A model generated the notes under the pieces. That model was given only the letters and a program-made list of their open reading frames with translations, was not told the DNA's origin and did no database searches. A stretch of 64,000 nt of DNA from Octopus vulgaris (lineage: Eukaryota), in NCBI GenBank assembly GCA_951406725.2, contig OX597816.1:96720001-96784000 (forward strand). Reading direction: 5' to 3'. Below are positions 1-55,831 of this stretch, piece by piece. How positions within the stretch are numbered: position 1 is the stretch's first letter; every line of letters starts with the position of its first letter. The translations under genes were made by a program, and so were the position numbers.

Positions 1-2779
1 TCCTCCACAACTTTCAAGTACGACCTGATACTGCTTACCCTTAAGTATGATGCTGTTGCTACAAATGCTCACATCCCAAAGAAGGCCAGTCAACTAACTG
101 ACAAAAATTCAGTCATCAGCATGCTTCAACCACTAGCTCACAGATATGCTACTTCTGTAATCTACCTTTGTTGTTATGAGAGTTGCAATGCCCCTTTGTA
201 AGAGATAGACTGGTCCAAGTAAAGTATAAATAGTAACAATCTGAGTGAGCTTGACAGTTCAGAGCCAAGTGAAGTTCATGTTAGTTTGCAGTGAAGTCAG
301 GTGTCAGTTGGTTAGTTCACAAGGAATATTTATTGTTGGTTCATAAAGAGATTTGTTAGTTTGTTACATTGTTTTTACGGTCATCTGGTTATCTTGTTTA
401 CTGTATGTAACAATTACGTTGCAACAACCTTTTTTGTCACAATTATAATGGTCTCTGCTTCTCTGCACATGCTAGCTGCTTACCTTCTTCTCCCAGGCCA
501 TCTTGTCCCACCTATCTTTCCCATGTCATTAATTGTCTCAGTCCTTTATCTTACTACTTAGATTTTGCACTAAATACTTCATACAATCCTTCCTTTTCAG
601 AATGACAACCAAAAAGAATTCTGAGAAAAATATTTGTTTGAATTTTAAAAGATTAGCTTGTATAAATGTGTTGAGAGATATGCTGGTTGAACCTCATAGA
701 GAATATGATAAAGGACTGAGACGATTAATGACACACTGTGCTTAAGAAAATGTCCAACTATGCAAGAATGGCAAAGCTAGTGTTAAAAATGGTTTTAGTG
801 ATTGAGGCTAGAGGCATAATACATATATGTGTGTATAGATGTGTATATACCTGCACACATTTGGATTTCTCATCTAATGTGTCTGTCAAGTCTACATCTG
901 CTACTCCACTCCTCTATTTGATACCTTCTTATCTCCCTGTCACTCTTCCCAACTCATCTCACTCATTCTCATTTTTCTACCTAACATGTATTGTCTCTCC
1001 ATCCAAACCTATTTGCTGTATTATTCTGCTACAGAACCTATTACATCATATCATTAATGACTTAGACAATAACAACCCATCAAATCCAAAAAGCAAAAGT
1101 AAAGTAACAAATATGATGAGGTGATAAGGATCAGATTTGATGAAAACATTAATACAACAGAAAAGAAAGCAAGTTTCTAGAGATTGCATTCTAATCTGTG
1201 AATAGTTTCTTTGAAATAAAAAATTCCAAGCTGCTTCAATAGTTATTTCATAATTACAGACAATTTTCACTGATTTTGTTTTCTAAACTTTATTAAATTA
1301 TCAATATTTTCTCCACAATTTAACAGCAAGGTAAAATATATCTGTTAAGAGAAGAGCGACCGTCTATTGGTATAACTTTACTCATATCTTTAAATATAGT
1401 CTGCTTAAGTTAGCAACGTGAATATTGAAGAGTAGAAAGGAAATCCAGCCACGTTTCATGGTTTGCTATCTCAATAACTTCTTTATAGCATCTAGTGGCC
1501 AAAGACATTATCAGGAGGAACCATGTCTGGTTTTGGCCCCTATTCCTCTACTATTTTTGGTATTAAATGCTTATATTAAATCATATTAAATGCTTCTATT
1601 GTTTTCTTTTTAGTGCAATGCAATAGTGTTTCTACAACCAAATGTTCTTTATCTGTAATCTTCTGGGTCTGCTGCCACTAGTACTTGCATAGGTTACACC
1701 ATTTTTGTCTCCCTTTCTATATTTCTGCACAATAAAATCACAATAAAAATCCCCAGAAAATGCATGGTGGCCATTTTCACTGTGTACACTTTACATTTAT
1801 TAATTCTGCTTTTAATATTCTTCATTCTTTTTCTATATTTTAGTTTAGAGCAGAAATAAAACACAAATTACAAAGAAATTCTTGAATGGGGTAGAAAAAT
1901 TTTCATTTAATCTGAGAATGGAATGTCTGCATCCCATCATACATAAAAACAATATAGAAATATGATAGTAGATGAAGCTGGCATCAAGAGTGGGTGGCTA
2001 TAAAATATTAAAGCGTTTCTGAAACAGCTAATATCATTCAGAAACAGAGATCAATAGTAAATTAGCAAGGCTCAGAAGTCCATTAAGTTCTAGTGATTCT
2101 GTCAACATGCCTCAACAAAGTGCTGTAAACTCATTAATCAGTCAATAAATACTTTACTGTTGGAAATGTATTAAATCTTGATGAAATTAGCATTTAGAAT
2201 AATGATGTGAAGATAAAGAAGATAAAGTAAACAAACCAAAATAAAATAGGTGTATCAGCAAACGGCTCCATTACCTGCCATTAAAGTAGTTTCATAAGGA
2301 GCTGTATATTTGTTTTTATGGCATTTGATTCATAAGAAAAATGTAAATGAGCTCTGCTACAATTAACGTGACTGCAATTATAAATATACCCAAAATGAAT
2401 CTTATTTATTTTCACTTGAGATTTTTTTCCCAAGCTCTCTAGATGAAATAACAAAACCCTCATGCATCAATATTCAATAAATTGAATATTATCACTATGA
2501 TTATAATTCTCTTTTATTACCTGATATAATATCAAAGCAATCTTTATGTTTTCACATTTGCACAAAATTAAATATCATGTGATTATCTTTCCTGCAAAAG
2601 TTTCTCTTGATTTTTTTTTATTGCTTAATTTTTCTTTTAATGCTGAATGGTGTGTGTATAAAACACTATTTGTAAAAAACACTGAACAGTCACTTAGTGA
2701 CGTGTAAAATGGACATTCTTTTAGATAACCTTTAACAGTCTCAATGGAGATTAAAAAAAGATAAAATAACTTAACAGGG

Positions 2780-3195
2780 CTGCTAGCTGGCCCCCATGCC
2801 CGTGGCATGTAAAAAGCACCATTTGAGCGTGATCATTACTAATGTCTCTTTACTGGCACTTGTGCTGGTGGCATGTGAAAAACAACATTCGAGCGAGGGC
2901 GTGGCCAGTGCTGCTGGACTGGCTCCTGTGCAGTTGACATGCAAAAAACACCATTTGAGCGTGGCCGTTGCCAGTACTGCCTGACTGGCCCTCGTGCCGG
3001 TGGCATGTAAAAGTACCCACTACACTCTCGGAGTGGTTGGCATTAGGAAGGGCATCCAGCTGTAGAAACTCTGCCAGATCCGATTGGAGCCTGGTGCAGC
3101 CATCTGGCTCGTCAGTCCCCAGTCAAACCGTCCAACCCATGCCAGCATGGAAAGCAGACGTTAAACGATGATAATGATAATGATGATGATGATGC
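2780..3195 (+). mobile_element. RTE-tail SINE / RTE 3' UTR with tandem subrepeats and (GAT)n tail
   Basis: Repeated 'gtggcatgtaaaaagcacc' units, then 'gagtggttggcattaggaagggcatccagc...aacgatgatgat'. The same tail ends the RTE fragments at about 41700 and 55150. Confidence 0.8.
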
Positions 3196-18170: not shown

Positions 18171-18174
<4 letters not shown>

Positions 18175-19382
18175 GTCATCCCATAAGATCTGTCCAAATT
18201 TTGGATAAAGAAAACAAGTGATCAAATGTGATATTTAATTGAAATTTAATCATCAATGTACTTTCCCTGATTATCTATGACTGCCTTCCATCTATTTACA
18301 AGCTTTTTAATCCCATCAATGTAAAACTCTTTTGGTTTCAAAGTGAAGAACTCTGAAATGTCTGTTTCAACCTCCTCCTGGCTTGCAAAAGTTATGCACC
18401 GCCAAATTATTCTGTAAACTAAGAAACAAATGGTAGTCTGAAGAAGCAAGGTTGGGAGAATAAGGTGGATGAAGAATTTATTCCCAACCAAGCTCTTCGA
18501 TCTTCTGTGATGTGATCTTTGCAGTGTGGGGTCACGCATTGTCCTGATGAAACATCACTCCTTTTCAATTCACTAAAGTGGATCTTTTTTTGTTCAAAGG
18601 CTCTATTGCTGACAGTAGACTTAAGCATTGATTGTTGCATTAGGTGGTAATAATTCAAAGTGAATTACTCCTTTGTAATCACATCAGATAGAGAGAAGAA
18701 CCTTTTTTTTCCATGAAGTTCCCTTCTCGGTTGTGGTTGAGCTTTTTCCCTTTTACCAAGCCACTATTTATGATGTTTCACATTTCAATAGAAGATCCAT
18801 TTTTCGTCACCAGTCACATGAGTTCGCAAGAATGGAGAGAAAAGCAGACAATTCATGAGGCACCCATTTTCCAAGTTTAGGAAACTGTCCAAGTTGTTGA
18901 AGATGATGATGAACAGTTGTATGGTTTGAACTAAGCTTTATTGCCAATTCTTCAACTGATAATGCAGGATTTTCTTTAAGTAATGCCTTAAGGAGCTTAT
19001 CATCAAACTCAACTGGACATTCTGTTCAATCTTCATCTTCAAGGCTGAAATCTTCACTTCTGAATTTTGCAAACCATCTTCTGCAAGTTCTTTCATTCAA
19101 GCATTCTTGCCCATAAACTGAGTGTATGTTTCGAGTCACTTTGGTGGCAGAGTTTCCTTTTTTGTACTCATAAAGCATTAAATGCCCTTTGGATACTTCA
19201 ATGTTAGAAAGGGTTTTAATCAAAGTAATTTTAATTCTATTATTCTGTAAAATAATACTTATTTAGTTTAAATGTACACAAATGCATAAAAATAACTTTT
19301 AATTCCCTTAGACATTCTAAAATACTATTAAATTTCATTTAATTTTAAAAACGGTTAAATTAGACAGAATTTATGGGATGAC

Positions 19383-19386
<4 letters not shown>
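18171..19386 (-). mobile_element. mariner DNA transposon, near full length, inactivated
   Basis: TIRs tcaggtcatcccataag and ttatgggatgaccgga set in (TA)n. Transposase remnants include the N-terminal HTH (RTCRRWFAKFRS), WVPHEL, VTGDEKW and YSPNLASSDY. Confidence 0.92.
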
Positions 19387-19527: not shown

Positions 19528-19720
19528 ATTTGGGATGGCTTCTATGGCTGGATGCCCTTTCTAATGCCAACTACTTTACAGAGTGTGCTGGGTACTTTTA
19601 AGTGGCATCACAATGGTTCTTATACATGGCATATACATATACTCACACACACACACAGATATATATATATATATATATCTTTGTGTGTGTGTGTGTATAT
19701 ATATACACACACACACACAC

Positions 19721-19760
<40 letters not shown>

Positions 19761-19891
19761 GTGTGTGTGTGTGTGAGTATATGTATATGCCATGTATAAG
19801 AACCATTATGATGCCACTTAAAAGTACCCAGCACACTCTGTAAAGTAGTTGGCATTAGAAAGGGCATCCAGCCATAGAAGCCATCCCAAAT
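19528..19891. repeat. near-perfect palindrome centred on (TA)n/(CA)n
   Basis: The SINE segment at about 19528-19660 is repeated inverted at about 19757-19891 with one substitution. The same peptides appear on both strands in the ORF track. Confidence 0.97.
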
Positions 19892-19894
19892 TCT

Positions 19895-19995
19895 AGTGTA
19901 TGTTCAGATGACAACAATATTAATGATGATAATAATATATATATATTATATATATTATTATCATCATTAATATTGTTGTCATCTGAACATACACT
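19895..19995. repeat. second adjacent palindrome centred on (TA)n
   Basis: agtgtatgttcagatgacaacaatattaatgatgataataa and ttattatcatcattaatattgttgtcatctgaacatacact are exact reverse complements. Confidence 0.97.
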
Positions 19996-20629
19996 TTCCC
20001 ATTTTTGAATGAGTCGGATGGAAGCCATTGAGGTAAGTTTACTATAGGTGGATGCCCTTCCTGCCACCAATCCTCATTTGTTTGCAAGCAAGGTAATATT
20101 TTCTCATAATAAAGGCAGCAAGCTGGCAGAATAGTTAGCATGCCAGGTGAAATACTTAACAACATTTAGTATGGCTTTACATTCTGAGTTCAAATTCTGG
20201 CAAGATTGACTGCCTTTCATCCTTTCGGGGTCAATAAATCAAGTACTAGCTGGACAGCTGCTTCACCAAAATTGCTGGCAGTGTGTGAAAATTTGAAACC
20301 AGTATTTCTTCATAACCAACTGTTTCTAGGGAAGATTGGAAATGAATGATACTGTTCATATGATGATGGCAAACGTTTACAATTATCATGTGTTGTCAAA
20401 GTAAGAAAGTATAAACACACAAACACACACACAGATGCACACACACACACACACACATACAAGCACACACACACATAAATGCACAAGCACACATGCATGC
20501 ACACATATTTCTATACAACAGGCACCTTTCAGTTTCTGTCTATCAAATCAACTCATAAAGCCTTGGTTTGCCAGGAGTAACAGTAGAAGGTACTTGCCAC
20601 AGTGAAGCTATATATATAAATATATATTC

Positions 20630-21010
20630 TTTAATTCTTTTACTTCTTTCAGTCATTTGACTGCAGCTATGCTGGAGCACCAGCCTTAGTTGAACAAATC
20701 GACCCCAGGACTTATTCTTTGTAAGCCTGGTACCTATTCTATCAGTCTCTTTTGCCGAAGTGCTAAGTTACGGGGACATAAACACACCAACATTACTTGT
20801 CAAGAGATGGTGGGGGAGAAACACATACACACATACATACACTATATACAACGGGCTTCTTTCAGTTTCTGTCTATCAAATCCACTCACAAAGCTTTGGT
20901 TGATCCAAAGTTACAGTGGAAGACACTTGCCCAAGGTATCATGCAGTGGGACTGAACCTGGAACCATGTGTTTGGGAAGCAAGTTTCTTACCACACAGCC
21001 ACTCCTGCAC
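20630..21010 (-). mobile_element. tRNA-derived SINE with internal CA/TA microsatellite
   Basis: Reverse complement of the family at 42860-43225 and 47203-47595. Confidence 0.85.
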
Positions 21011-26139: not shown

Positions 26140-26512
26140 CTGTTGTTGGTGTCACATAAGTGGTACCTGTGCCAGTGGCATGGAGAAAACACCTTTTGAG
26201 CATTGGGCCTCAGAGGCAATGACAAGTGACTGAAATCTTTGACAATATGCTGTGCTTGAGAAGACGACCCCGCAAGCTAAGTTAAATTGTAGTCATGGCA
26301 GATACTGGTGTCACCAACTGGCACCCATACCGGTGGCATGCAAAAGCACCCATTACACTCTCAGAGTGGTTGGCATTAGGAAGGGCATCTAGTCATAGAA
26401 ACCATGCCAAATCAGACTGGAGTCTGGTGCACTCCCTCAGCTTACCAGCCCTGGTCAAACCATCCAATCCATGCCAGCATGGACAATGGATGTTAAATGA
26501 TGATGATGATGA
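26140..26512 (+). mobile_element. RTE-tail SINE with (GAT)n tail
   Basis: Same 3' sequence as 2780-3195. Confidence 0.8.
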
Positions 26513-29494: not shown

Positions 29495-31730
29495 ACAATC
29501 TGCCTTTCACTTTAAGAGAGATTTCAATTCTCAGGTCTCCATATTTAATAACCTTTTCTCTTTCTTTCATGATGATATGTTGATCTCCTGGCACTGCCGC
29601 GTCAATTGTTAGGCACTCTTGTTTGTCCTTCCCAAAGGTAATTATATCTACCCTTTGGTGTTCTATCTTCTCTGTCTGGAAGTCAATGTCCCAGAGGATT
29701 CTTGCCTTTCTCTTTTCGTCCATTACCTTTTCCAGAAGTATAAGGTGCTTGAAATATGCGATGGTGAGCTTGTCTTTCATTTCTTTATGCAAGATATTAT
29801 TCAGCTCCAGGATCCCAAGGTACTTGTACCCATCATCATCCAGGTCTTCCATTTGGCAATTCTATGCCCCTACAATTTACTCTTTCTCCCGCTTCAAAGT
29901 AAGCACCACACACTTTGAGATACCAAATTCCATCCCTATATCCTTGCTGCATATTTGCAGTCTCAACCAGCCTCTCCATTTCAGGCTCAGTTTTTGCGAA
30001 CAGTTTTAAATCAGCCATGAAGAAAAGGTTGTTGAGACAAGGTCCTTTCTTTTTCAACTCATAGTACACATTGATTTTTACGTAGGACTACAAAACCTGG
30101 GATCAAGGCTATAACAAATAACAGAAGTGAACAAGAGTCTCCTTGGAAAATACCTCTTTGGATTGTTACCTCAGTTAAGTGCTGGTTGTTACAGGGAAGA
30201 CATGTTTTCTAACTAGGCATACTGTTCTTAATCAGTGCACACACGTTCTCAGCTATTCCATACACATCATGTGTTTCCAAAATCCATGAATACAGCAACA
30301 TGTCATAAGCCTTTTTGAAGTCTATACAGGCAATGCATAAGTTTTTTTGGTACTGTTTACAGTTCTTCATTATAACCTTGTCTATCACAAGGTAGTCTTT
30401 GGTGCCCTTAGATCCTTTTTGTTCTACTGGCAGTAAATTGTTTTCTGCAAGGAACATACGTATTTTCCCTGCGAGGATACCTGTTAATACTTTCCATAGG
30501 TGATTAAGACAAGCAATGGGTTGGTAATTGCCAACCTCATTGCCCTTTGACTGATCTTTCATTTTCAATGTTGATTTTCCCTGTACCATCCACACTGGAA
30601 CTGCACTGCTCCACAGGCAATTGTCTAATTGCAATGCAATTCTCTTGTGTGTTGACCTATACTACTCAAGCCAGTAGTCTTGAATTCCATCTGGTCCTGC
30701 TGCTTTCCAGTTTCACAGTTTTGATACCTGTGCAATGACATCTGCTGTTGTTATGCACACATGGTCTTGTCGTGGAGCCTCCAGGTGATGGAGTTTAGAT
30801 CTCACAGAATGAATGCACTCGGCACTGTGATTGTGGGTAACTTCTTGCCCCCAGATGGTATTCCAAAATTGGTAGGTTTCTTCTGCTTTAGGGAGTGTAT
30901 TTTCTTCTGTATTTCCTCCTAAGCTCTTAAAAAACTGCTTCTGGTTATTTGAGAATAACCAGTTTTGCTGGAACTGTGATATGTGATCAGTGTAGCACTG
31001 CACTCTTAATGTTTTTGCCCACACACATTGTTTTAGGGTTTCAACAACAGTTTTGAACCCTTTCTTTTCTATTTGGTGCTTCGTGTCAAGATATGCCCTT
31101 GTACTTTTTTTTCATTTTTCCATTGCCCTTTGGACCACTCTTCAGATGCACCTCAGATCTTTACTCAAAGTTAGAATCTCACCTTCAATTCTCCATTTCT
31201 ACCATGGCCCTTCTGTCCCTCCACTTTCCTCTCTTTCTCTCCAACCAGTTCACCTACTAAAATTGAAGTGGATCTGATCAAGTGCCTTGTTACCGTTAGA
31301 TCTTTTGTCAGAATGTATTTCAGAATCTCATCAACTTTTTGGGTCATGTGTTTCACATTGTCATGGTTGAAGCTTCTTAAATTCACTGACTTGGTCTCTA
31401 TTCTTGTAATTATCATATCTTTGAGTCTTATCCTGAGATTTCTCTGTTCCTTGGTTATATTCTCTTGTAATTCAGAGTTTTCTACATTATATTGATTAGC
31501 CAACCTTGTCATTTATTTTGCTTGGCATTTTCACTCACTAATGAGGTTTCTTTTTAGTCTACTAACAACTAGTATTTTTATCAAGACACCATCTCTATCA
31601 AGGTAGTCCACCAAGGCACCAGGGTCCTTGCTCACCTTGTTTGGGACTCATAGTTTTCCTTCTCCCAGGCTGCTTGCTACCCAAGGTTAATGAGTACAGC
31701 TTACCTGGAGCACTGGTTATTTGAAGGTGC
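29495..31730 (-). pseudogene. R4/Dong-like non-LTR retrotransposon, degenerate ORF from N-terminus through RT to RLE
   Basis: NYQPIACLNHLWK, EQKG, IDFKKAYD, GIFQGDS, LFFMADLKLFAK, YKYLGILE, ILWD...RVDI...IDAAVPGD...EKVIKY. Confidence 0.85.
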
Positions 31731-34247: not shown

Positions 34248-35766
34248 TATAGATAAATTGTATGTATGTACATTTATGTATATATAAGAACTGTACCAAA
34301 AATAATTCAGCTGTGTGTATGACTCCTCTATTAATTCACATAAATTTTCCTTCACAGTAACCCTTCTTCCAGTTCTTTTTCATTGCAGTAAATACTAGGT
34401 TCCAAACAGCATGTGATTACTGAGTTCTTAACAAAGGAAGGAGTCTTTGTTGTTCAACATCCACAGAGAATTATAGGTTGTTTGCAGGGAGACATCATTG
34501 ACAAGGACAATGTGCACAGATGGCTAGAGTTCAAAGGGAAAACCAGCATTAAAGACAAACCATGTAATGGGGATTCTCAACTGCTTACACTGACACAAAT
34601 CATTAGTGAGTGACTGATATACTTCACATGGACAGACATGTTACACCACATGAGCTTGATGCACAACTGGACAGTGGTCAAAATGATTGCAGAAGATGGT
34701 AGATGGCTTTAGGTATTGGAAAGTATTAATTCAGGAACAGATTATTCAGTTAATTGAACAACTGAATCCTCAGGAAAATCCATTAAAAATATTTATACCA
34801 ACACACACATACACAACACACACATACAAACACAAACACACACATGCACAAATTTACATAAGCACACCTATAAGCATATAAATGACACGTACAAAATGTA
34901 CAAAAGATAAGGTTGTAGAAGAAAACAAAGAAAAATGCATAGCAGGTTATGAGAAACATTGATCTATGAAGTTTAATAAATTCAATCTTATATAGTGTGC
35001 AAGTGCATGTGTGTGCATGTGTTTGTGCTTACGTGTGTATTAGAATACACAAGTGTCATTTATATGTAAGTGTGCATATGCATACATATATGTTATGCAT
35101 TTATTAGTGCTTTAAATGTTTTGTAATGAATAAAAAAATGAATATAAAACCAAATATAAAAGATATTATGAATATAAAATCATTCTAAAATTAAAACACA
35201 AATATATAAAAATGATTAGGATGTGTGTAGATGTGCTTATGAATGTGTATACACATGTTTGCATATATCAGTGTGTATTAATTCAAGAAAAATATAAAAA
35301 TTATCTGCAACTGTAAGAATATTTGGATCTTTCAGATAAAGATTGTATTAAAGAGAATTGTTGATGATCCCTAAATTTAAATTGCAAACACCAGCAACAA
35401 AGCTAATATCATTTTAAGTAGCTTAAACTAGATAGAAATTTCAGAATGAAAGTATGCTGGCTACATTATGCTCACATAAGGTAGTGAATAGAATCGACGT
35501 AAATTAAAAAAAGAAAAGAATATGCTAAATTTGTTTTTTTCTAAAATGTTATCAGTTAGAGTAGGCTACATCTGTCTTCAGTTATCTTTCAAATCTAAAA
35601 TTTTCATTGACAAATATAATAATCATTCCATAAATATTTGGAAAAATATTATTTTGGCTTGCATTCTTCCATCTGGGTAACTTTTGCCTATGTCAATTAT
35701 GTCTGTGTGCATGGGAGAGAGGAAGAGGGGGATTAGTGTATTGTTCCACTTAAATAACATTGGATA

Positions 35767-36359
35767 ATACAACTTTTGATGATATATCTAAGACTTATTT
35801 GCAACTAAGTTAACAGTATTGAACTCAAAACTCACACTAGTCTGCCTATTACACCAATTTTTTGCTCTATGACAACTCCCTAGTCCCACTACGTGGCACC
35901 AGGCCAACCAAAGCCTCATGAATGGATTTGGTAGACGGAAACTGAAAGAAGCCCGTTGTGTGTATATATATATATATATAGTCATTTGACTGGCCGTGCT
36001 AGAATACCACCTTTAGTTGAACAAATTGACCCCAGGACTTATTCTTTGTAAGCCTAGTACTTATTCTATTGGTCTCTCTTACTGAACCACTACGTTATGG
36101 AGACGTAAACGCACCAACACCAGTTGTCAAGTGATGGTGGTGGGACAAACACAGACATATATATATATACATCGGGCTTCTTTCAGTTTCCGTCTACCAA
36201 ATCCATTCATGAGGCTTTGGTTGGCCCGGTGCCACGCAGTGGGACTAGGGAGTTGTCATAGAGCAAAAAATTGGTGTAATAGGCAGACTAGTGTGAGTTT
36301 TGAGTTCAATACTGTTAACTTAGTTGCAAATAAGTCTTAGATATATCATCAAAAGTTGT

Positions 36360-36393
<34 letters not shown>

Positions 36394-36600
36394 ATTTGTG
36401 TGTCTGTGTTTGTCCCACCACCATCACTTGACAACTGGTGTTGGTGCGTTTACGTCTCCATAACGTAGTGGTTCAGTAAGAGAGACCAATAGAATAAGTA
36501 CTAGGCTTACAAAGAATAAGTCCTGGGGTCAATTTGTTCAACTAAAGGTGGTATTCTAGCACGGCCAGTCAAATGACTGAAACAAGTAAAAGAATAAAAG
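35767..36600. repeat. SINE plus flank containing an inverted copy of itself inserted at its (TA)n tract
   Basis: A 35767-35955 pairs with A' 36173-36361, and B' 35980-36157 pairs with B 36401-36578. Three TA tracts separate the blocks. Confidence 0.95.
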
Positions 36601-37029
36601 AAAACCCACATTTTGGTGCCTTAGAAGTTACATCTATTCATGGATATATTTGAGGCAATGATTACAAATATGTCATTAGTTTTGCTAAGTCAGCACTCGC
36701 TTGAAGACATGGATTATTACCCCTTTATTCATATGCTGAAATGTAAGAGACTAGATGCACCTTACATCTCGGTGCCTTAGAAGCTCAACCTATTCTTGGG
36801 TATATCTAGAGAAGTGTTTCTAACTGGCAACAGTTTTGTCCTGTTAACTCTTATTAATTAATGGTTCGCTACTTTGACACAAAGGCAACAATACTAATAC
36901 TGTTATGTTTAGTAATTTACTATGTTTAGAATAACAGTTATTAAAACAACAATTTGGTAATGTACTGTTATTGAAATAAGAATACATTACCAAACTGATT
37001 AATTTCAGGACAAAAGTTTAAGATGGCTT

Positions 37030-39190
37030 AAAAGCAGAGAAAAGCTGAAAAAGCATTAGCACTCATTTGACAACATAAACTTCCACAAAGCAGACTGGGG
37101 AGCAATCAGAAAGGATCTGTCCTTCATCAAGTGGTCCTTCACACTCAGTTCCACTCACATTGAGAGTGCATGGCAACACTTTGAGAATATTGTCACCTAT
37201 ACATGCTCAAAACATGCTTCTACAAAATCCACTAATACAAACAGAAACTGGCTCCCTAGAGAGAAAATAAAAACACTCATCAGGCACATCAAAAGATTTA
37301 ATTTTAAAAATCAACTAATTAAAATACTCCCACATACAACACCCACATTCAACAACAATGAAAAGGCTAGAGTTGGAAAAACTTCATCTGCAGACCGACA
37401 TGAAAACCTCCATTGAAAATCAAAGAGCTGCAGAGGAACAGTAGGTAATCAAAAACATCAAACAGAATCCAATAGTGTTCTACTCTTATGCAAATAAGTA
37501 TAGAACCGCTGTCTCACCCATTGGGCCATTGATCGATGATAATGGCATTCCCCAATACGATGCTAAAGAAATGGCAGAAATACTGCAGAAACAATACTGC
37601 TCTGTCTTTAGTAATCCCACTGATATTGACGTAAGAGAAGCGAACGAAGTTGATTCCCAACATAAAATCTTGGACATAACCGTCACTGCCTCAGACATCA
37701 AAGCAGCAATAAATAAGGTCAAATACTATTCTGCTGTTTGGTCCTGATAGATTCCCCGCTAGTCTCCTGAAGGAATGTAGACACCAACTTGCAGTCCCTC
37801 TGACCAACCTCTAGAGAAAGACTCAGGTTATATACCGAAACGGCTCCTATCCCAGTCTGTCATCCTGGTTTTCAAAAAGGGAAACAGATCCCTTGCAGTC
37901 AACTAACGCCCAATCTCACTCACCTCCCACCTTTGAAAGAGTGGTAAGATCAAGGATAGCTGACTTCTTGGAGACCCACAGACTCCAAAATGCAAATCAG
38001 CATGGCTTTCACTGTGGCAGGGACTGTCTAACACAGCTCTTACACCACATTGAAGATATACTTAAAGCCTTGGGAACAGGTTTGAACTCTGATGTTATAT
38101 ATCTTGACTTCAGTAAAGTATTTGACAGGGTTGACCATAATATCTTACTCTCAAAATTGGCAAATGTTGGAATCCTTGGAAAACTTCTACACTGGATTAA
38201 GTATTTCCTGGCGAATAGAACACAAGACGTTGTGGTCAATGGATCCACTCAAGCTCAGCAAAAGTCACCAGTGGTGTCCCTCAGGGGACTGTCTTGGGCC
38301 TGATCCTCTTTATAATTTACATAAATGTCCTTTCCAGTGTCGTAAATCACTGCAAAGTGAAAATATTTGCTGATGACACTAAGCTCCAGAAAATCATCAA
38401 TGAAGAAGAAGATTGAATGCAAATCCAGTCTGATCTATATGCTGTGAGTCAATGGGCAGACAAAAACAAAATGCAACTGAACGAGGGAAAATTTGAGCTG
38501 ATGCATTTTGGAAGAAAGTCTATACTAAAACAGCCATACTCTCTTCCTTCTGGGGAACCACTCATGGCATCTAATAATATCAGAGACCTGGGCGTAATTG
38601 TTGATAGCAATCTCAGTTGGAGTGCCCACATCAACAATAAGGTCGATATAGCTCGTAGGATGAGCTCCTGGATCTTAAGAACCTTCCAGTCCAGAGAATA
38701 AACGAATTGAAGGCATGACTGATCTCGATTATTGGGACTGCCTTAAAGCCTTGAAACTCTACTCTCTCCAGCGGCGCCGCGAGTGGTACATCATTTGTAC
38801 GATGTGGAGAATATACCGCCAGCATTGCCCAAATGACCTGAACATTAGTTTCAAGATTCATCTAAGGCTGTGACTACAGGTCATATGTCCCCTGTCCAAT
38901 TCAGGATCACAACATATAGGTACACTGCGACATAATTTCTTTTCCTCAACAGGCCCTGCCCTGTTTAACATTGTCCAAAAACTGATTAAAGAGGAAAAGG
39001 ATCTCATCACCTTTAAATGGAGTCTGGATAGATTTCTTCAAGGAATACCAGATAAGCCACCCATACTTAGATACAACTCACTACTTGAATGGACCATAAA
39101 CAAAACTTGACTTAAAAAGGATTTAGATAATCCTATCAGCTGGTGCTATTAAGTTAGACATGGCCTGGACCAATCTTTGGTCGAAACATA
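37030..39190 (+). pseudogene. CR1-group LINE, 5'-truncated and degenerate RT ORF
   Basis: NQHGF, YLDFSKVFDRVDH, SGVPQGTVLG, FADDTKL, IRDLGVIVDSNLSWSAHI. Confidence 0.9.
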
Positions 39191-40202: not shown

Positions 40203-40430
40203 GAGAGAGACACAGAATTACTGGTAAGGGATTATTAATCTGAGCAAAATACTTCACAAGCTCTCTGTAGGCACACTAGGCTAACAGTATTGTTTAGATT
40301 AGTGAAGAACTCCAAGCATTCTTATAGCAGGGTCTGAGGTTATAGTTCATCACCATCCTATATTGTAAAACCATGGTTGTGTTCCAGTCAAACTGGTTTT
40401 TACACAGAGTAATATACAAGACAAGGTATA

Positions 40431-40819
40431 AATAATGGTCATTAAATATTTTTCCTTTATTGCAGTAAATTTGGCTTACAACTCTTTCCACTAGTCGTTA
40501 TAAGTATGTTACTGATAGGTTTCTCAATTGGTCTATTGATCAGTTGAGAAAAGTTGAATGACCTAAAAAATTAGTGCTGCTTTCGTCAGAGCTATTTCTG
40601 ATTGCAACAAAGCAGAACACTGAAGGAATGTGTTCTGCTTTGTTATAACCAGAATTGGCTTTGACGAAACCAGCATTAATTTCTTAGGTCATTCAACTTT
40701 TCTCAACTGATCAATAGGCCAATTGAGAAACCTTTCAGTAATGAACCTATCATAACTACTGGAAACAGCTGTAAGCCAAATTTATTCCAATAAAGGAAAA
40801 ATTTGTAATGATAATTATT
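40431..40819. repeat. old palindrome, ~190 bp arms with 9 nt loop
   Basis: Arms 40431-40620 and 40630-40819 are diverged reverse complements; loop tgaaggaat. Confidence 0.92.
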
Positions 40820-40839
40820 TATAACTTGTGTAAAAAATC

Positions 40840-41736
40840 CATGGCAGTGAAACATGGGCTGTGACTGCTGAGGACATGCATAAGCTTGCTAGAAATGAAG
40901 CCAGTATACTCTGCTGGATGTGTAATGTCAGTGTGCATACACAACAGAGTGTAAGCACCCTGAGAGAAAAGTTGAACAAAAGAAGCATCAGATGTGGTGT
41001 GCAAGAGAGACTGCTGTGCTGGTATGATCATGTGTTGCAAATGGATGAGGACAGCTGTGTGAAAAAGTGTCACATCATAACAGTGGGGGGAACCTGTGGA
41101 AGAGGTAGACACATGAAGACCTGGGATGAGGTGGTGAAGCATGACATTTGAACATTAGGCCTCACAAAGGCAATGACAAATGACCAAGACCTTTGGTGAT
41201 ATGCTATGTTTGAGAAGATCCAGCAAGCCAAGGGAAATCATAGCTGTGGTTTATGCCAGTGTCGCATAACCAGGCCATTGGACAATAAACTATGCTTGAG
41301 AAGACCTGTTGAGTCAAGTAAAATCATTGTTGCGGCCAATGCCAGTACCACATGACTGGTACCCATGCTGGTGGCATGTAAAAAGCACCATTTGAGTGTG
41401 GCTGATGCCAGTCTCTCCACACTGGCTCCTGTGCCACTAGCACGTAAACTGCACCATTTGAACATGGTCAATGCCAGTGCCAGTTGACTGGCTCCCATGC
41501 TGGTGGTACATAAAAAGCACCATTCAAGCATGGTCACTGACAGTGCTGCCTGACAGGCCCTTGTGCCGGTGGCACATAAAAAGCACCCTCTACACTCTTG
41601 AAGTGGTTGGCATTAGGAAGGGCATCAAGCTGTAGTAACCTTATCAGACCAGATTGGAGCCTTCTGGCTTGCCAGTCCTCAGTCAAATCGTCCAACCCAT
41701 ACTAGTATGGAAAGTAGATGTTAAACAATGATGATG
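40840..41736 (+). mobile_element. RTE LINE 3' end with tandem 3' UTR repeats and (GAT)n tail
   Basis: HGSETWAVT...RNEAS.L.WMC...GRGR.KTWDEVV; tail shared with the RTE-tail SINEs. Confidence 0.88.
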
Positions 41737-42202
41737 GTGTCTTATACATATATGAAACATAAATGGACACTGTGCTTAGACTTGGGTCCCATCCCTAAGA
41801 AGCTACATTTTTCTGATGCAAATATAAAAATAATTGAAAATGTGCAAGCATCTGAAATCTGCAACACTTTTGGTTCAAATAAATTTCAGATAAGGGATTA
41901 TCAGCATTGATATCATTGTCAAATTTACATTAAAATAGCAGCTCATTTATTAATTAAAGGCAGTATGGTGCATATGCATAGGTCAATGACAGATAAAGGA
42001 GTTTCTATGCATAATGTTGATTAGTTGACAGCAACTTCAAAGTTTTGCTGGTGGTGGCTTATTCAAATCATGAGTTTAAAGCCAAATTTAACATTAGATT
42101 CTATACACATGTCCTGAGTCTTTTCATCAATCAACACTCATAGATTTTATACATTTGAAACACTTCTCTTTAACAACATGCTATATATGTACACATACAT
42201 AA

Positions 42203-42269
<67 letters not shown>

Positions 42270-42484
42270 TATAACTAATGTAGGATAAAATTTTTTCTAA
42301 ATAAAATTTTATCAATCGCCAGCATATCAAAAAATACCTTTAAAAGTTAAATGTATAAATAACTTATAAAATAAGGGCAAAAGAAAAAGTCCAATGCCAA
42401 ATATGCTGAAAAATAGACAAAATTGTCAATAACCATTATAATTTATGCGTCTCGAAACAAGCTGATAGAAATTTCTAAAAAATC

Positions 42485-42555
42485 CGTTATTACCGTATTG
42501 GTTCCAATTTCGGGGTTAATTCATAAGAATTTTCCCCTCTTCAGCAATAAATACG
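42485..42555 (-). ncRNA. type I hammerhead ribozyme
   Basis: Minus strand: ttattg-CTGAAGA-gggg-aaaattcttatgaattaa-cccc-GAAA-ttgg-aa-ccaa-TA|cggtaa. Stems I (two G-U pairs), II and III all form. Predicted cleavage after AUA, between 42496 and 42495. Confidence 0.8.
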
Positions 42556-42580
42556 TAAGACATAAATTAAATACTTACTC

Positions 42581-42640
42581 ATACCCTGAAGAGGGGAAAA
42601 TTCTTATGAATTAACCCCGAAATTGGGACCAATACGGTAA
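42581..42640 (+). ncRNA. second hammerhead core, inverted copy with stem I out of register
   Basis: atacc-CTGAAGA(42586-42592)-gggg...cccc-GAAA(42619-42622)-ttgg-ga-ccaa-TA|cggta. Confidence 0.65.
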
Positions 42641-42764
42641 TAATGGATTTTTAGAAATTTCTATCGGTTTCAAGATGCATAAATTATAATGGTTATTGAC
42701 AATTTTGTCTTTTTTTCGGCATATTTGGCATTAGAATTTTTCTTTTGCCCTTATTTTATAAGTT

Positions 42765-42803
<39 letters not shown>

Positions 42804-42859: not shown

Positions 42860-43225
42860 GGCACAGTAGCGGCTGTGTGGTAAGTAGCTTGCTTAGCAAC
42901 CACATGGTCCCACTGTGTAGAACCTTGGCCAAGTGTCTTGTACTATAGCCTTGGGCTGACCCAAGCTTTCTGAGTGGATTTGGTAGACGGAAACTGAAAG
43001 AAGCCTGTCATGTGTGTGTGTGTGTGTGCATGTTTGTCCCCCATCACTTGACAACCAATGGTGGTGTGTTCACGTGACCATAACTTAGTGGTTCAGCAAA
43101 AGAGACCGATAGAATAAGTAACAGGATTACAAAGAACAAGTCCTGGGGTTGATTTGTTCAACTAAAGGCAGTGCTCCAACATAGCCACAGTCAAATGACT
43201 GAAACAAATAAAAGAATAAAAGAAT
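42860..43225 (+). mobile_element. tRNA-derived SINE with internal (TG)n
   Basis: ggctgtgtggtaag head, gtagacggaaactgaaagaagcc core, aaagaataaaagaata tail. Confidence 0.88.
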
Positions 43226-43228
43226 ATA

Positions 43229-45388: not shown

Positions 45389-45475
<87 letters not shown>

Positions 45476-45478
<3 letters not shown>

Positions 45479-46001
45479 GGTGTCGCAAAAAGATGTACTC
45501 ACTCTTTGACAGATGATGTACGGGCTTACCTCAATGCAACAAATCCAAACAAATGGATTGGGAGGAGAGGTAGCGTTGAATTTCCTGCACATTCCCCAGA
45601 CCTCACACCAATGGATTTTTTTTTTTATAGGGACATCTTAAAGATAAGGTTTACACTGCAGAACCAGTGACAATTCATGGTCTGAAAAATGAAAATCGAA
45701 TAGAATGTCTTGCAACTCCAAATGAAATGTTTGGCAATGTTGTCAAATCCATCGTTGGACATTATCAGCTTTGTTTGGAAAATAAAGGAAGACAGTTTGA
45801 ACATTTGCAAACACGCAGGAATGAGAGAGAACATTAAATAATTCTAAATGACAATAAATAATCGTTTCTACAACAATTTATTTTCCTGAATTTAATTTAA
45901 CTTTTTTAGGATTGTATGTATATCAATAAACATCTACTTGAACACAAAATGCATGAGTACTGGGAAGTCAAAGAGTGAGTACATTTTTTTGGGACACCCT
46001 G
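45476..46001 (+). mobile_element. Tc1/mariner-superfamily deletion derivative
   Basis: TIRs cagggtgtc.caaaaa..tgtactcactctttgac and gtcaaagagtgagtacattttttt.ggacaccctg; motifs [10 protein letters not shown] and GHLKDKVY. Confidence 0.85.
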
Positions 46002-47202
46002 TAGATATATATATATACATATGTGTATGTATGTATTTATATATATATATATACATACACATATTTGTATAAAATCATTTTCGGTTTATGTCCACTTTCC
46101 ATGCTGGAATGAGTTGGGTAATTCAACATGGTCTAATTGGTTCAGTTGACATCCCCGCCTCTTCCAATGCCTCTGTTCTGATATGAATTCTATAGCCCAA
46201 TGCCATTCTTAACGCCAACCACTTTAAAGAATGAATTGGGTGCTTGTTTTGTGGTAAATGCGTGCGTGCATGCGTGTGTGTGTGTGTGCATTTTCGTGTG
46301 TACATGTGTGTGTTTATCTCTTAGTCAGGAGCAAAGCAGTGGCCATGACCCTTTACAAGGCTTCTGAGATTAATGGGGTAGGGAGAGAGGAGACTATCCT
46401 CAAGCTGGAGACCTGCCTGTCTCTCCACTCCAAATGCTTGCAATAGAGACTCCACTAAAGATACCCAAGATACTAGATGGTGGTGTTAAACCAGATTAAG
46501 TCTAGTGTTGGTGTGTATGTGTATATATAATGTATGTATATACACATATGTTTGTATATAATTCACAATTACACAATACATCCTATATATATATATATCC
46601 TTATAATGATATGAATTGCATGTGTATTTGCCTTTATAAGTCTAAAATACTCATTCTATTGATAATCATCTAATCATGTGAAAAATTCTCCATAAGAGAT
46701 TATTTGAAAGAATATTACAATCGCACAAACTTCATTCAAGTCACATGGAAAATGATAACTCTATTGTGAGGGTATAACTAAAATTCAATAACATTTGTAT
46801 TTCTTCAACATTACCAGCATTGCCATTGTTGTTACCATTGTTCTCATTTTAAATCATTGATTCTCTCATACTTGCATATGAAAGACAGCTCTGTCATACA
46901 ATATATCACCCTCATAAAATTCTTTTGCCATCTTGTTTGTGAGGTTGCCATCTTGAGATCTGATCTGACCTTTTCTTTGTTGAATACCTTCATGTTTCCC
47001 TGCTGTGAGTTTATTCTTCTGTCAGTATACACCATTTTCTTACTTATTATCTGTACATGTAACAAGGATCGTCATCTCTCCTGCATACTTCAATTAATAA
47101 CATTCATGTTCAGGAACCCTCTAAGTATACCTGCACATTAATCTTTGAGAAAGTTACCTTTGCACATCAGATTATGTTTCACACAGTTTTTTCCAATTTC
47201 TG

Positions 47203-47350
47203 TAGGCGCAGGAGTGGCCACATGCTTCTGGGTTCATTCCCACTGTGTGGCACCTTGGGCAAGTGTCTTCTACTATAGCCTTGGGCCGACCAATGCCTTG
47301 TGAGTGAATTTGGTAGACGGAAACTGAAAGAAGCTCATCGTATATGTGTA

Positions 47351-47381
<31 letters not shown>

Positions 47382-47595
47382 ATGTTTGTATGTCTGTGTT
47401 TGTCCCACCAACATCGCTTGACAACCAATGGTGGTGTGTTTACCTCCCTGTAACTTAGCAGTTCGGCAAAAGGGACCGATAGAATAAATACTAGGCTTAC
47501 AAAAAATAATTCCTGGGGTTGATTTGCTTGACTAATGGCAGTGCTCCATCATGGCCACAGTCAAATGATTGAAACAATTAAGAGAGTAAAAGAGT
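47203..47595 (+). mobile_element. tRNA-derived SINE with internal TA/TG tract
   Basis: Unrearranged reference copy of the SINE family that is rearranged at about 35880-36600. Confidence 0.88.
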
Positions 47596-51793: not shown

Positions 51794-51972
51794 GTTTAAA
51801 TACTTTGTGTTTTGTCTCTGTGGAATACATGCATTTATGCTAAAAATTTATATATATATAGATATAAATTTTTAGCATAAATGCATGTATTCCACAGAGA
51901 CAAATCACAAAGTATTTAAACTTGTTAATCCACAAGTAAAACAATATATATATTGTTTTACTTGTGGATTAA
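51794..51972. repeat. two adjacent (TA)n-centred palindromes
   Basis: 51794-51921 (~56 bp arms, one mismatch) and 51925-51972 (20 bp arms around tatata), joined by ttg. Confidence 0.95.
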
Positions 51973-52789: not shown

Positions 52790-55159
52790 GACAACTGGGA
52801 ATTCCTGTGGGACAACTTGCTGAGTGCCACAGACCAAATCTGTGGGTGGTGCAAAGTCACAACCAGACCTTGGGTAATGTGGTGGTGGGACAATGCAGTA
52901 GACAGGACCATTAGAGCAAAGAAACAGGTCTTGAAGGACTGGAAGAGTTGGGTAGCAGAGAACTGTATGAGACAGCCAGAAGGGAAGCTAGGGGACAGGT
53001 ATATCTAGCTAAGGGAAAAGCAAAAAAGAAGTTTGCCTATGTCCAGCAATGAGAGGACCAGAGAACTGAAGTGTTTTGGATTGCAAGACAGTGTGTGAGA
53101 GAAAATTGTGATGTCATGGGAGAGAAATGTGTCCGCATGGATGATGGTGCACTTGAATTTAATGATTCTGCAAAGAAAGAAGCTTGGAAATGTCATTATG
53201 AAAGACTGCTGAATGTGGAGGATGAATTGGGGGATGAGAGTCTACCTAACGATGACGCAATTGAGGGACCAGCCACCCAAATTGACAGTACCTTGGTAAA
53301 TAAAGCAATTAAGGATATGAAGACAGGGAAAGCACCTGGTCCACTAGGAATCACTGCTGAGATGCTTAAAATATCTAGCGGTGTGGGTTATGGTCTTGTC
53401 ACCCACATCGTAAATCAGGTAGTTCACAAAGGAGTCATACCCAATGACTAGTGTAGCAGCATCATAATCAACTGCTACATAGGTAAAGGTGATGTCTTAG
53501 ATAGAAATAATAACAGAGGTATCAAATTGTTAGATCAGGTGATGAAAGTCATGGAGAAAGTCACAGCCCAACTAATTAGGGAGAGGGTTAGCTAGACAAG
53601 ATGCAGTTTGGTTTTGTGTCAGGGAGAAGAACCATTTCTGGAAAGACAATTGCAGAAGAAATACATAGACAAAGATAAACCTCAGTACTTGGCCTGTTGA
53701 CTTGGAGAAAGCCTTTGACAGGGACGCCTGATCTCTTATCTGGCGGTCAGTGTGGAAACTAGGGATAGATGAGTGGTTGGTGAGAGCTGTACAAACTATG
53801 TACGGGGATGATACCAGTAAGGTGTGGGTTGGCAACAAGTATAGCAAAGAATCCAGGGTACAAGTAGGGGTTCACCAAGGATCGGTGCTCAGCCCCACTT
53901 GTTCATGATAGTCTTCCAGGCAATAACAGAAGAACTTAAGACAAGCTGCCCCTGGGAGCTCCTCAATGCTGATGACCTTGTTCTTATAGCTGAGTCACTA
54001 TCAGAACTAGAGAAAAAGTTCCAGGTATAGAAGCAAAATCTAGAAATGAAGGGTCTTAGAGTTAACCTAGCAAAAACCGAAGTCTTAGTAAGTAGGAAGG
54101 TGGACAAATAAAAAATCCCTTCAAATAGATGGCACTGCTTGATCAGTAGAAAAGGCATACATAGAAACTCCATAAGATGCATCTGGTGCAAGTTTTGGAC
54201 ACATAAAAGGTGCAGCAATATCAGAGGAAGGTTAACACGGAAACTAGCTTTTGTATGTGGAAGATGCACAGGTAGAATAGATACTGAAAATGTGCAGAAA
54301 ATTGACTCCATCAACTGTTAGAGGACAAGCTAGAGGTAGTAGATAGCTTCTGTTACCTAGGTGACCAAGTTAGTTAGTGCTCCGAGAGGGTAACTGTGAG
54401 AATAAGAAGAGGTATAAGAGACATTAATTGAGGTGTGCAAGTGAGATGACTGCACAGGTATGGTAATATGATGTGTATGGATGAGGTCAGCTGTGTAAAG
54501 AAATGCTGATCTCAAACTGTGGAGGGAACATGTGATAGAGGTAGACCCAGGAAGACATGGGATGAAGTGATGAAGTATGATCTTTGAACTTTGAGCCTCA
54601 CAGAGGCAATGACTAGTGACTGAGACCTTTGTCGAAGATCCATCAAGCAAAACGAAATTATAGTCAGGGCTGGTATTAGTGTCATGTAATTGGTGCCCAT
54701 GCTGGTGGCATGAAAAGAGCACCATTCAAGCATTCAACCTCACGGAGGCAAAATTGCTGAGTTCCTTTCGATTGTCGGGCATTATGGAGGCAAAGTGACT
54801 GAGTTCCTTTCGAACAATAGGCTGCATGGGGTCAAAGTGGCTGAGTTCCTTTCAAGTGTTGGGTTTCATGGAGGCAATGAGCAAGATGTTTGGCATTACC
54901 TTGTGCTTGAGAAGAAGACCCATCAAGCCAAGCAAAATTGCAGTCACGGCAGATACAGATGTCATACAAATGGCACCCATGTCAGTGGCATGTAAAATCA
55001 CAAATTACACTCTCAGAATGATTGGCGTTAGGAAGGGCATCCAGCCATAGAAAACCAGGCGAAATCAGACTGGAGTCTGGTACAGCCTCCAAGCTTACCA
55101 GCCCTGGTCAAACCATCCAACCAATGCCAGCATGGATAACAGACATGATGATGATGATG

Positions 55160-55578: not shown

Positions 55579-55630
<52 letters not shown>
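55415..55630. repeat. long compound (TA)n/(CA) microsatellite
   Basis: More than 200 bp of interrupted TA repeat. Confidence 0.95.
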
Positions 55631-55831
55631 TATAGCGTATATTTAAATACATAGAGAATCCACTTATAGGGATTCTACGCGCTAGAAAGAAAAGCTAAGT
55701 TCTATAACCACTAAGTTCTATAGAACTTAGCTGTTCTTTCTAGCACGTAGAATCCCTATAAGTGGAATCCCTTTCTAGCGTATAGAATCCCTATAAGTGG
55801 ATTCTCTATGTATTTAAATATACACTATATC
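55629..55831. repeat. nested hairpin with internal direct duplications, adjoining (TA)n
   Basis: Outer arms gatatag(c)gtatatttaaatacatagagaatccacttatagggattcta and its reverse complement. 'tttctagc...gaatccctataagtgga' and 'ctaagttctata' each occur twice. Confidence 0.9.

What the first reader, a model, noticed from the sequence alone, without database searches (positions are those of the whole stretch)
35767..36578. Locus containing an inverted copy of itself inside its own microsatellite: A-(TA)-B'-(TA)-A'-(TA)-B
Seen: the insert at 35980-36361 is the reverse complement of A-(TA)-B and sits in the SINE's internal TA tract. A includes about 110 bp of non-SINE flank, so the template was this locus and not another SINE copy. 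A and A' differ at about two positions and I see no difference between B and B'. An unrearranged family member is at 47203-47595. Inference: template switching or repair synthesis from a break in (TA)n, a different topology of the same TA-anchored process.
Basis: partly seen in the sequence, partly recalled or inferred. Interest (0 to 1): 0.72.

Follow-up and report, generated by a model that had tools for sequence, protein, structure and literature searches.

The report
Inverted self-copy scar at TA repeat
In this assembled, likely octopus sequence a 380-base backwards copy of a locus sits inside that locus's own TA repeat, most likely a neutral scar of DNA copying that jumped strands and came back (a known kind of mutation), though no reads confirm it and an assembly error remains possible.

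Summary
The structure is in the sequence. 35980-36361 is the reverse complement of this locus's own A-(TA)n-B. It carries 116 nt of flank with no other hit in the window, a private 28-nt deletion and 16 private SINE substitutions, so the template was local. Corrections: A and A' differ at three sites, and the inverted copy lacks 16 nt beside its shorter TA tract. The entry junction has 1 nt of microhomology; the return junction has 5 nt (6-8 of 430 alternative points do as well). This is the two-switch topology known as four-point type 3-1-4-2, or a miniature DUP-TRP/INV-DUP, and it likely began with stalling or breakage at a (TA)n hairpin. Two more young TA-anchored inverted duplications, in fold-back order, lie in the same 64 kb. 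Read support could not be obtained: the single read-laying run skipped both new junctions, and no genome or orthologue was available. The nearly equal arms (196/194 nt) and allele-like differences keep a gap-filling or haplotype artefact alive (about 25%). Verdict: new example of a known mutation class, neutral; of more interest only if the TA-anchored density holds genome-wide.

The parts
35767..35882 (+). A, distal part: non-SINE flank, copied into A'; its left end is switch point 3
   Evidence: 116/116 identical to rc 36246-36361, no other hit in the window
35883..35962 (+). A, proximal part: 5'-truncated first half of the SINE with a private 28-nt deletion, ending in a short TG run
   Evidence: alignments to three paralogs
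35963..35980 (.). TA tract 1, (TA)9; entry junction (switch 1 to 2) at its right end, 1 nt microhomology
35981..36157 (-). B': inverted copy of the SINE 3' half without its tail
   Evidence: 178/178 identical to 36401-36578, counting the shared junction base
36158..36169 (.). TA tract 2, (TA)6: the native A-B junction in inverted orientation, shortened
36170..36358 (-). A': inverted copy of A (match extends to 36361 through the junction microhomology)
   Evidence: 3 substitutions in 192 sites
36359..36384 (.). TA tract 3, (TA)13; return junction (switch 3 to 4) at its left end, 5 nt microhomology to the start of the native tract
36385..36400 (+). 16 nt of degenerate microsatellite present only in the outer copy
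36401..36578 (+). B: SINE 3' half; its right end (switch point 2) lies in a 5-bp-stem hairpin of -2.8 kcal/mol
36579..36602 (+). SINE tail, not duplicated
20623..21007 (-). unrearranged paralog, fullest head; 83.6% identical to B
42864..43228 (+). unrearranged paralog; 81.0% identical to B
19528..19995 (.). sibling event, fold-back order X-(TA)-X'|Y'-(TA)-Y, arms 132 and 46 nt
51794..51972 (.). sibling event, fold-back order, arms about 55 and 20-24 nt

Best explanation
The assembled locus holds a 380-nt reverse-complement copy of its own A-(TA)n-B inside its TA tract, likely a neutral germline scar of two template switches during replication or break repair. Shown: the structure, the local template and the junction microhomologies. 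Inferred steps: (1) a nascent strand copied A and stalled or broke in the self-complementary (TA)n. (2) Its 3' end moved, with only 1 nt of homology, to the opposite strand about 194 nt ahead, on an intact duplex (unreplicated template, sister or homologue). (3) It copied backwards through B, the tract (skipping 16 nt plus some TA units, or using a shorter allele) and A, about 380 nt in all. (4) It re-annealed through 5-7 nt at the start of the original TA tract and went on into B. The result is A x2, tract x3, B x2, with nothing deleted. The event is young: 3 differences in 370 paired sites, about 1 My (0.2-3.3) if they arose after the event, and younger if they are allelic.
For: Private variants and flank are shared by both copies. 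Only two non-native junctions exist, and the middle one is the native A-B junction inverted, which needs an intact template across the tract. Return-junction microhomology of 5 nt is reached by 8 of 430 (against A) and 6 of 430 (against A') alternative points; the 7-nt match against the paralog-type tract start by 1 of 430 (that ancestral state is inferred). Both copies carry derived changes, 2 in A and 1 in A', polarised by three paralogs. Two more 98-99% identical local inverted duplications in the window are also centred on TA tracts, one with tracts of only 12 and 8 nt; only 4.4% of the window lies within 20 nt of (TA)>=4; no comparable young direct duplicate was found. The window has no N and holds pure TA runs up to 60 nt, which suggests long reads that would span 800 nt (inference). 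In print: type 3-1-4-2 gives two inverted repeats around an inverted spacer (PMC5453318); TA repeats are break sites repaired by Pol-theta MMEJ (PMC13645644).
Against: No read or contig was shown to cross either new junction, and no unrearranged orthologue was seen. The arms are nearly equal (196 and 194 nt), which a template switch does not predict and a flank-based gap filler would. All 3 substitutions and the microsatellite difference lie near the tract, while 294 other sites are identical, as two alleles might look. All three TA-anchored events are young; no decayed TA-centred relic was found. The entry junction has essentially no homology. The insert is three times the longest great-ape short-range event (max 128 nt, PMC7954356). 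If the return point is at the tract start, point 4 precedes point 1, an order not seen in human-chimp data (PMC5453318).
Confidence: 0.55

Rival explanations
1. Assembly or library artefact: a gap at the TA tract was filled with the other haplotype's A-(TA)6-B, reversed and with flanks untrimmed, or a chimeric molecule entered the consensus.
For: Arms of 196/194 nt; copy differences of 0.8% plus a different microsatellite allele; no junction support; only young events in the window. Fold-back reads are about 0.55-0.6% of ONT genomic reads (PMC12870357 passages).
Against: A 5-nt microhomology at the return junction has a chance of 6-8 in 430. There are no N and longer TA runs are intact. The sibling events have unequal arms and short tracts. 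Described fold-back artefacts are single turns and were virtually absent from HiFi data.
Confidence: 0.25
2. Real, but made by end joining: a 380-nt fragment A-(TA)-B released from the sister or homologue (double cut, or an extruded replication bubble centred on the AT-rich tract) was captured in inverted orientation in a break at the TA tract.
For: One junction with about 5 nt and the other with 0-1 nt of microhomology, and inserts of 16-709 bp, match the local inverted insertions at mouse meiotic hotspots (10.1101/2020.06.23.168138 passages). It would explain equal arms and allele-like differences.
Against: The mouse events come with deletions and ATM loss; nothing is deleted here. It needs three or more breaks. 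It does not give the fold-back order of the two sibling events without a circular intermediate (inference).
Confidence: 0.15
3. Independent retrotransposition of another SINE copy, or of a multicopy element holding this flank, into the TA tract.
For: The SINE family is very abundant, and elements with terminal inverted repeats do sit in TA tracts in this window.
Against: The insert lacks the SINE tail and head, is 100% identical to local B against 80-84% for paralogs, and carries the local deletion and flank.
Confidence: 0.02

Closest known systems
Four-point template-switch mutation, type 3-1-4-2 (Loytynoja and Goldman 2017, PMC5453318; Walker et al. 2021, PMC7954356)
   Same: One reverse-complement fragment from the same locus overlaps both exit and return points and gives two inverted repeats around an inverted spacer; AT-rich initiation context.
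   Different: Fragment about 380 nt against median 12, max 128; both switch points lie in a self-complementary microsatellite; the microhomology hints at order 3-4-1-2, which was not observed in human-chimp data.
DUP-TRP/INV-DUP inverted triplication, haplotype structure 1 (Grochowski et al. 2024, PMC11293582)
   Same: Copy pattern 2-3-2 with all three segments inverted, two junctions, short microhomology at the return junction.
   Different: Sub-kilobase rather than kb-Mb; the triplicated part is only the microsatellite; the first switch uses no inverted low-copy repeat pair.
Local inverted insertions at breaks: yeast fold-back templated duplications (PMC11724301, abstract only) and mouse hotspot inverted insertions (10.1101/2020.06.23.168138)
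   Same: Locally derived inverted DNA at a break, with asymmetric microhomology. The yeast fold-back type resembles the two sibling events in the window.
   Different: Yeast inserts are mostly 5-34 bp and copy one side only; mouse inserts accompany deletions. Here both sides are copied across the break site and nothing is lost.
(TA)n cruciform fragility repaired by Pol-theta MMEJ (PMC13645644)
   Same: TA tracts of 6 or more units are break sites; repair yields small duplications.
   Different: Shown in human cancer ecDNA; this topology is not among the passages I read; the enzymes are untested here.

Membership tests
Four-point template-switch mutation (3-1-4-2) | Inserted fragment is the reverse complement of nearby sequence | tested here: met
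Four-point template-switch mutation (3-1-4-2) | Two inverted repeats around an inverted spacer; fragment overlaps points 1 and 4 | tested here: met
   definition from PMC5453318 passages
Four-point template-switch mutation (3-1-4-2) | Point 1 precedes point 4 | tested here: inconclusive
   TA periodicity hides the order; 5-7 nt microhomology favours 4 before 1
Four-point template-switch mutation (3-1-4-2) | Ancestral, unrearranged allele seen in an outgroup | not testable with these tools
   no genome; junctions skipped; collection scans empty
DUP-TRP/INV-DUP | Copy pattern 2-3-2 with inversion and two junctions in cis | tested here: met
   in the assembled sequence only
DUP-TRP/INV-DUP | [quoted passage not shown] | tested here: not met
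   1 nt of homology at the entry junction; smallest pair in PMC11293582 is about 0.9 kb. It works like one but is not filed as a member
DUP-TRP/INV-DUP | Second junction blunt or with short microhomology | tested here: met
   5 nt; 0-7 bp in the paper's table
ODIRA-type inverted triplication | Both junctions are fold-backs at short interrupted inverted repeats | tested here: not met
   each junction jumps about 195 nt; the definition is recalled, papers seen only in search listings
tRNA-derived octopus SINE (host element) | Short, non-coding, highly repeated, short tandem tail | tested here: met
   4 long copies in 64 kb; summed contig depth up to 1e7; no ORF of 100 aa or more overlaps the locus
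tRNA-derived octopus SINE (host element) | Pol III A and B boxes in a tRNA-like head; target-site duplication | tested here: inconclusive
   box-like motifs judged by eye in the 20.6-kb copy (consensus recalled); local copy lacks the head; no duplication evident; no Rfam match
tRNA-derived octopus SINE (host element) | Match to a named family (OK, OR1, OR2; names partly recalled, OR2 cited in PMC4758252) | not testable with these tools
   no SINE consensus library was available

The most novel reading that the evidence does not exclude
Octopus (TA)n tracts, many of them seeded by an abundant SINE, are a genome-wide engine of locally templated inverted duplication. Three young events in 64 kb all reduce to X-(TA)n-Y with inverted copies of both flanks put into the tract, in fold-back or crossed order. 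The crossed form, with equal arms of about 195 nt, would record reuse of a lagging-strand or bubble-sized piece centred on the tract, in a switch order (4 before 1) not seen in apes.
Probability: 0.2. Interest if true: 0.62.

Novelty: new member of a known kind. Interest (0 to 1): 0.33.

Why it matters
The locus itself has no sign of function: a decayed, truncated SINE in repeat-rich DNA. It matters as a clean record of a rare switch topology (1% of 794 human-chimp events, PMC5453318) at a size between the short and the kb-Mb classes. If one such event per roughly 20 kb holds across the genome, TA-tract repair would be a major, directly countable source of structural variation in cephalopods. 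If reads refute it, it marks a systematic assembly error at TA tracts.

Tried and rejected
No whole genome was held, so the genome-wide count was impossible. Of 24 runs listed, 4 were laid once on 35250-37050. The tool skipped 35951-35988 and 36350-36415, which are the two new junctions, and paralogs swamped the tables (32 pieces shown, 226,122 not shown; 15 joints shown, 177 not shown). Depth of contigs matching B against the right flank: X2 38 and 29.7 vs 18.4, X1 66.9 vs 51.1, X19 7.3 (one difference) vs 5.43. Paralog-like contigs in X1 and X2 range from about 0.9 to 4.7 times the flank, so I draw nothing from this. One X2 contig runs from B 9 nt into the native tail, too short to count as bridging, and that join exists in both allele types. 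Zero depth over the A flank and a low-depth piece in 35738-35798 in X1 and X2 are holes or fragments and prove nothing. Scans with two SINE motifs found 0 matches in metagenome contigs and 0 in prokaryote genomes. Rfam gave 0 matches. The protein atlas was uninformative on taxon. Pfam named 2 of 6 ORFs tried (RVT_1) and none of the three I suspected, from recall, to be transposase or helicase pieces. Earlier-findings look-ups by place, sequence and one word set returned nothing. Rejected: double fold-back, inverted integration of a circle, or inversion of a tandem duplication between TA tracts (all give A-TA-A'-B'-TA-B, not the order seen); ODIRA (junctions are not fold-backs); independent SINE insertion. 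Clustering of the three substitutions near the tract was picked out after the fact and is not used as evidence.

Full report
Setting. The window is AT-rich, repeat-rich animal DNA without N. The two best, and only named, of 14 hits to a retroelement fragment at 53053 are from Argonauta hians and Octopus sinensis, and I recognise the SINE from memory as an octopus repeat; so the host is likely an octopod, species not determined. No genome was held.

Observation. Two inverted pairs, 35767-35971/36157-36361 and 35980-36172/36386-36578, give the order A-(TA)9-B'-(TA)6-A'-(TA)13-B. B and B' are identical over 178 sites; A and A' differ at 3 of 192. Against three paralogs, two changes are derived in A (both G to A) and one in A'. 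The inverted copy has a shorter tract and lacks 36385-36400. Removing 35981-36358 leaves one 5'-truncated SINE with its tail, colinear with the paralog at 47203 apart from a private 28-nt deletion.

Template. The insert was copied from this locus. It shares the 28-nt deletion, 16 substitutions at columns where all three paralogs agree against it, and 116 nt of flank with no other hit in the window; paralogs are 79.8-83.6% identical to B. It lacks the SINE head and tail. In 4 of 4 runs laid, SINE bins reach summed depths of 1e4-1e7 and flank bins show 0, so the flank does not behave as a high-copy repeat at 94% likeness, with the tool's caveat that holes prove nothing.

Junctions. There are two non-native junctions. 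At entry, the TA tract joins the far end of B with 1 nt in common, inside a weak 5-bp hairpin. At return, the far end of A joins the tract with 5 nt in common with the start of the native tract (reached by 8 of 430 and 6 of 430 alternative points against A and A'), or 7 nt if the ancestral tract start was as in the 20.6-kb paralog (1 of 430; inferred state). The middle junction is the native A-B join, reversed, so the template was intact across the tract. A broken chromatid's own two ends cannot supply that (inference). The switch points lie 196 nt left and 194 nt right of the tract.

Neighbours. A scan for local inverted 16-mers gave 17 diagonals. Six belong to three near-identical TA-anchored events: this one, 19528-19995 and 51794-51972. 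The other 11 are short matches or belong to palindromic or terminal-repeat elements not centred on a TA tract. The two siblings have the order X-(TA)-X'|Y'-(TA)-Y, with 0-2 differences per arm and at most a base or two of homology where X' meets Y'. All three reduce to X-(TA)n-Y. Only 4.4% of the window lies within 20 nt of (TA)>=4, and the direct-repeat scan found only a pentamer array and one short match in an old SINE pair. Three of 35 merged TA clusters-scale sites is a small sample from one window, and no old TA-centred relic was seen.

Reads. Twenty of 24 listed runs hold part of the region, 8 of them half or more of its words. I laid four (X1, X2, X4, X19). The tool skipped both new junctions as repeats, so nothing is shown for or against them. 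X1 and X2 both differ from the window at 36768 at full depth, so the window is another haplotype or has an error there. X4 and X19 share four substitutions and a 3-nt deletion in 470 nt of right flank and look like a sister taxon; that divergence (about 0.9%) equals the A/A'-B/B' divergence (0.8%). Depth ratios were inconclusive (see Tried and rejected).

Mechanism. I favour two template switches from a stalled or broken (TA)n hairpin (0.55). Shown: structure, local template, microhomologies. Inferred: the break or stall, the enzymes, the direction and the template molecule. Capture of an excised fragment (0.15) gives the same product and explains the equal arms. An assembly or library artefact (0.25) explains the equal arms and allele-like differences, but not the return microhomology or the short-tract sibling. 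Independent insertion is all but excluded (0.02). With 0.0036 changes per site per My, read from the pairing of distance 0.09 with 25 My in PMC13282606, 3 of 370 gives 1.1 My (0.2-3.3); this is an upper view if the differences are allelic.

Known kinds. It has the topology of four-point type 3-1-4-2, 1% of 794 human-chimp events; orders with 4 before 1 were not observed there (PMC5453318, passages). Great-ape fragments have median 12 and maximum 128 nt (PMC7954356, passages). It works like DUP-TRP/INV-DUP haplotype 1 but fails the inverted low-copy-repeat criterion (PMC11293582, passages). TA tracts as MMEJ-repaired break sites: PMC13645644, passages. Local inverted inserts: PMC11724301, abstract; 10.1101/2020.06.23.168138, passages. 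Spontaneous inverted triplications in AT-rich fungal DNA: 10.1101/2025.01.14.632981, abstract and section 6. Fold-back read artefacts: PMC12870357, passages. Octopus repeats: PMC13282606 and PMC4758252, passages; 'palindrom' occurs 0 times in the former. No supplements were read; those of PMC5453318 may list longer or TA-anchored events. Searches listed no paper whose title or abstract start describes TA-anchored inverted duplications in cephalopods; the library omits most subscription papers.

Verdict. It is a new, unusually sized example of a known mutation class, without sign of function and without read confirmation. Interest 0.33; about 0.6 if the density of TA-anchored events proves real across the genome (probability 0.2).

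Noticed in passing
window 19528-19995: Young TA-anchored double fold-back X-(TA)-X'|Y'-(TA)-Y; the first centre is itself a nested palindrome of CA/TA/TG runs.
   Followed up: partly
window 51794-51972: Second double fold-back of the same order, with TA tracts of only 12 and 8 nt.
   Followed up: partly
joints 36596 to 36173/36174 in runs X4 and X19: Contigs join the SINE tail to an inverted SINE 5' half through 7-8 other letters, at depth 3153 against a flank of 47 in X4 and 227 against 5.4 in X19: possibly an amplified, internally inverted SINE derivative. Not among the rows shown for X1 or X2, but 317 rows were hidden.
   Followed up: no
window 18171-19386 and 45474-46005: Elements with terminal inverted repeats sitting between TA tracts; Tc1/mariner-like by recall, but Pfam gave no match for their ORF pieces.
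   Followed up: partly
window 40421-40829, 42359-42766, 55629-55831: Long imperfect palindromes (74-88%) not centred on a TA tract, MITE-like; the last two abut TA runs.
   Followed up: no
window 37060-38303, 30209-30661, 53053-53451: Broken non-LTR retroelement pieces; RVT_1 matches at 37815 and 30212.
   Followed up: partly
window 2775-3181 and 41331-41752: A second repeat family with internal 66-nt tandem units, further partial copies at 26192, 54848, 57713 and 19440.
   Followed up: no
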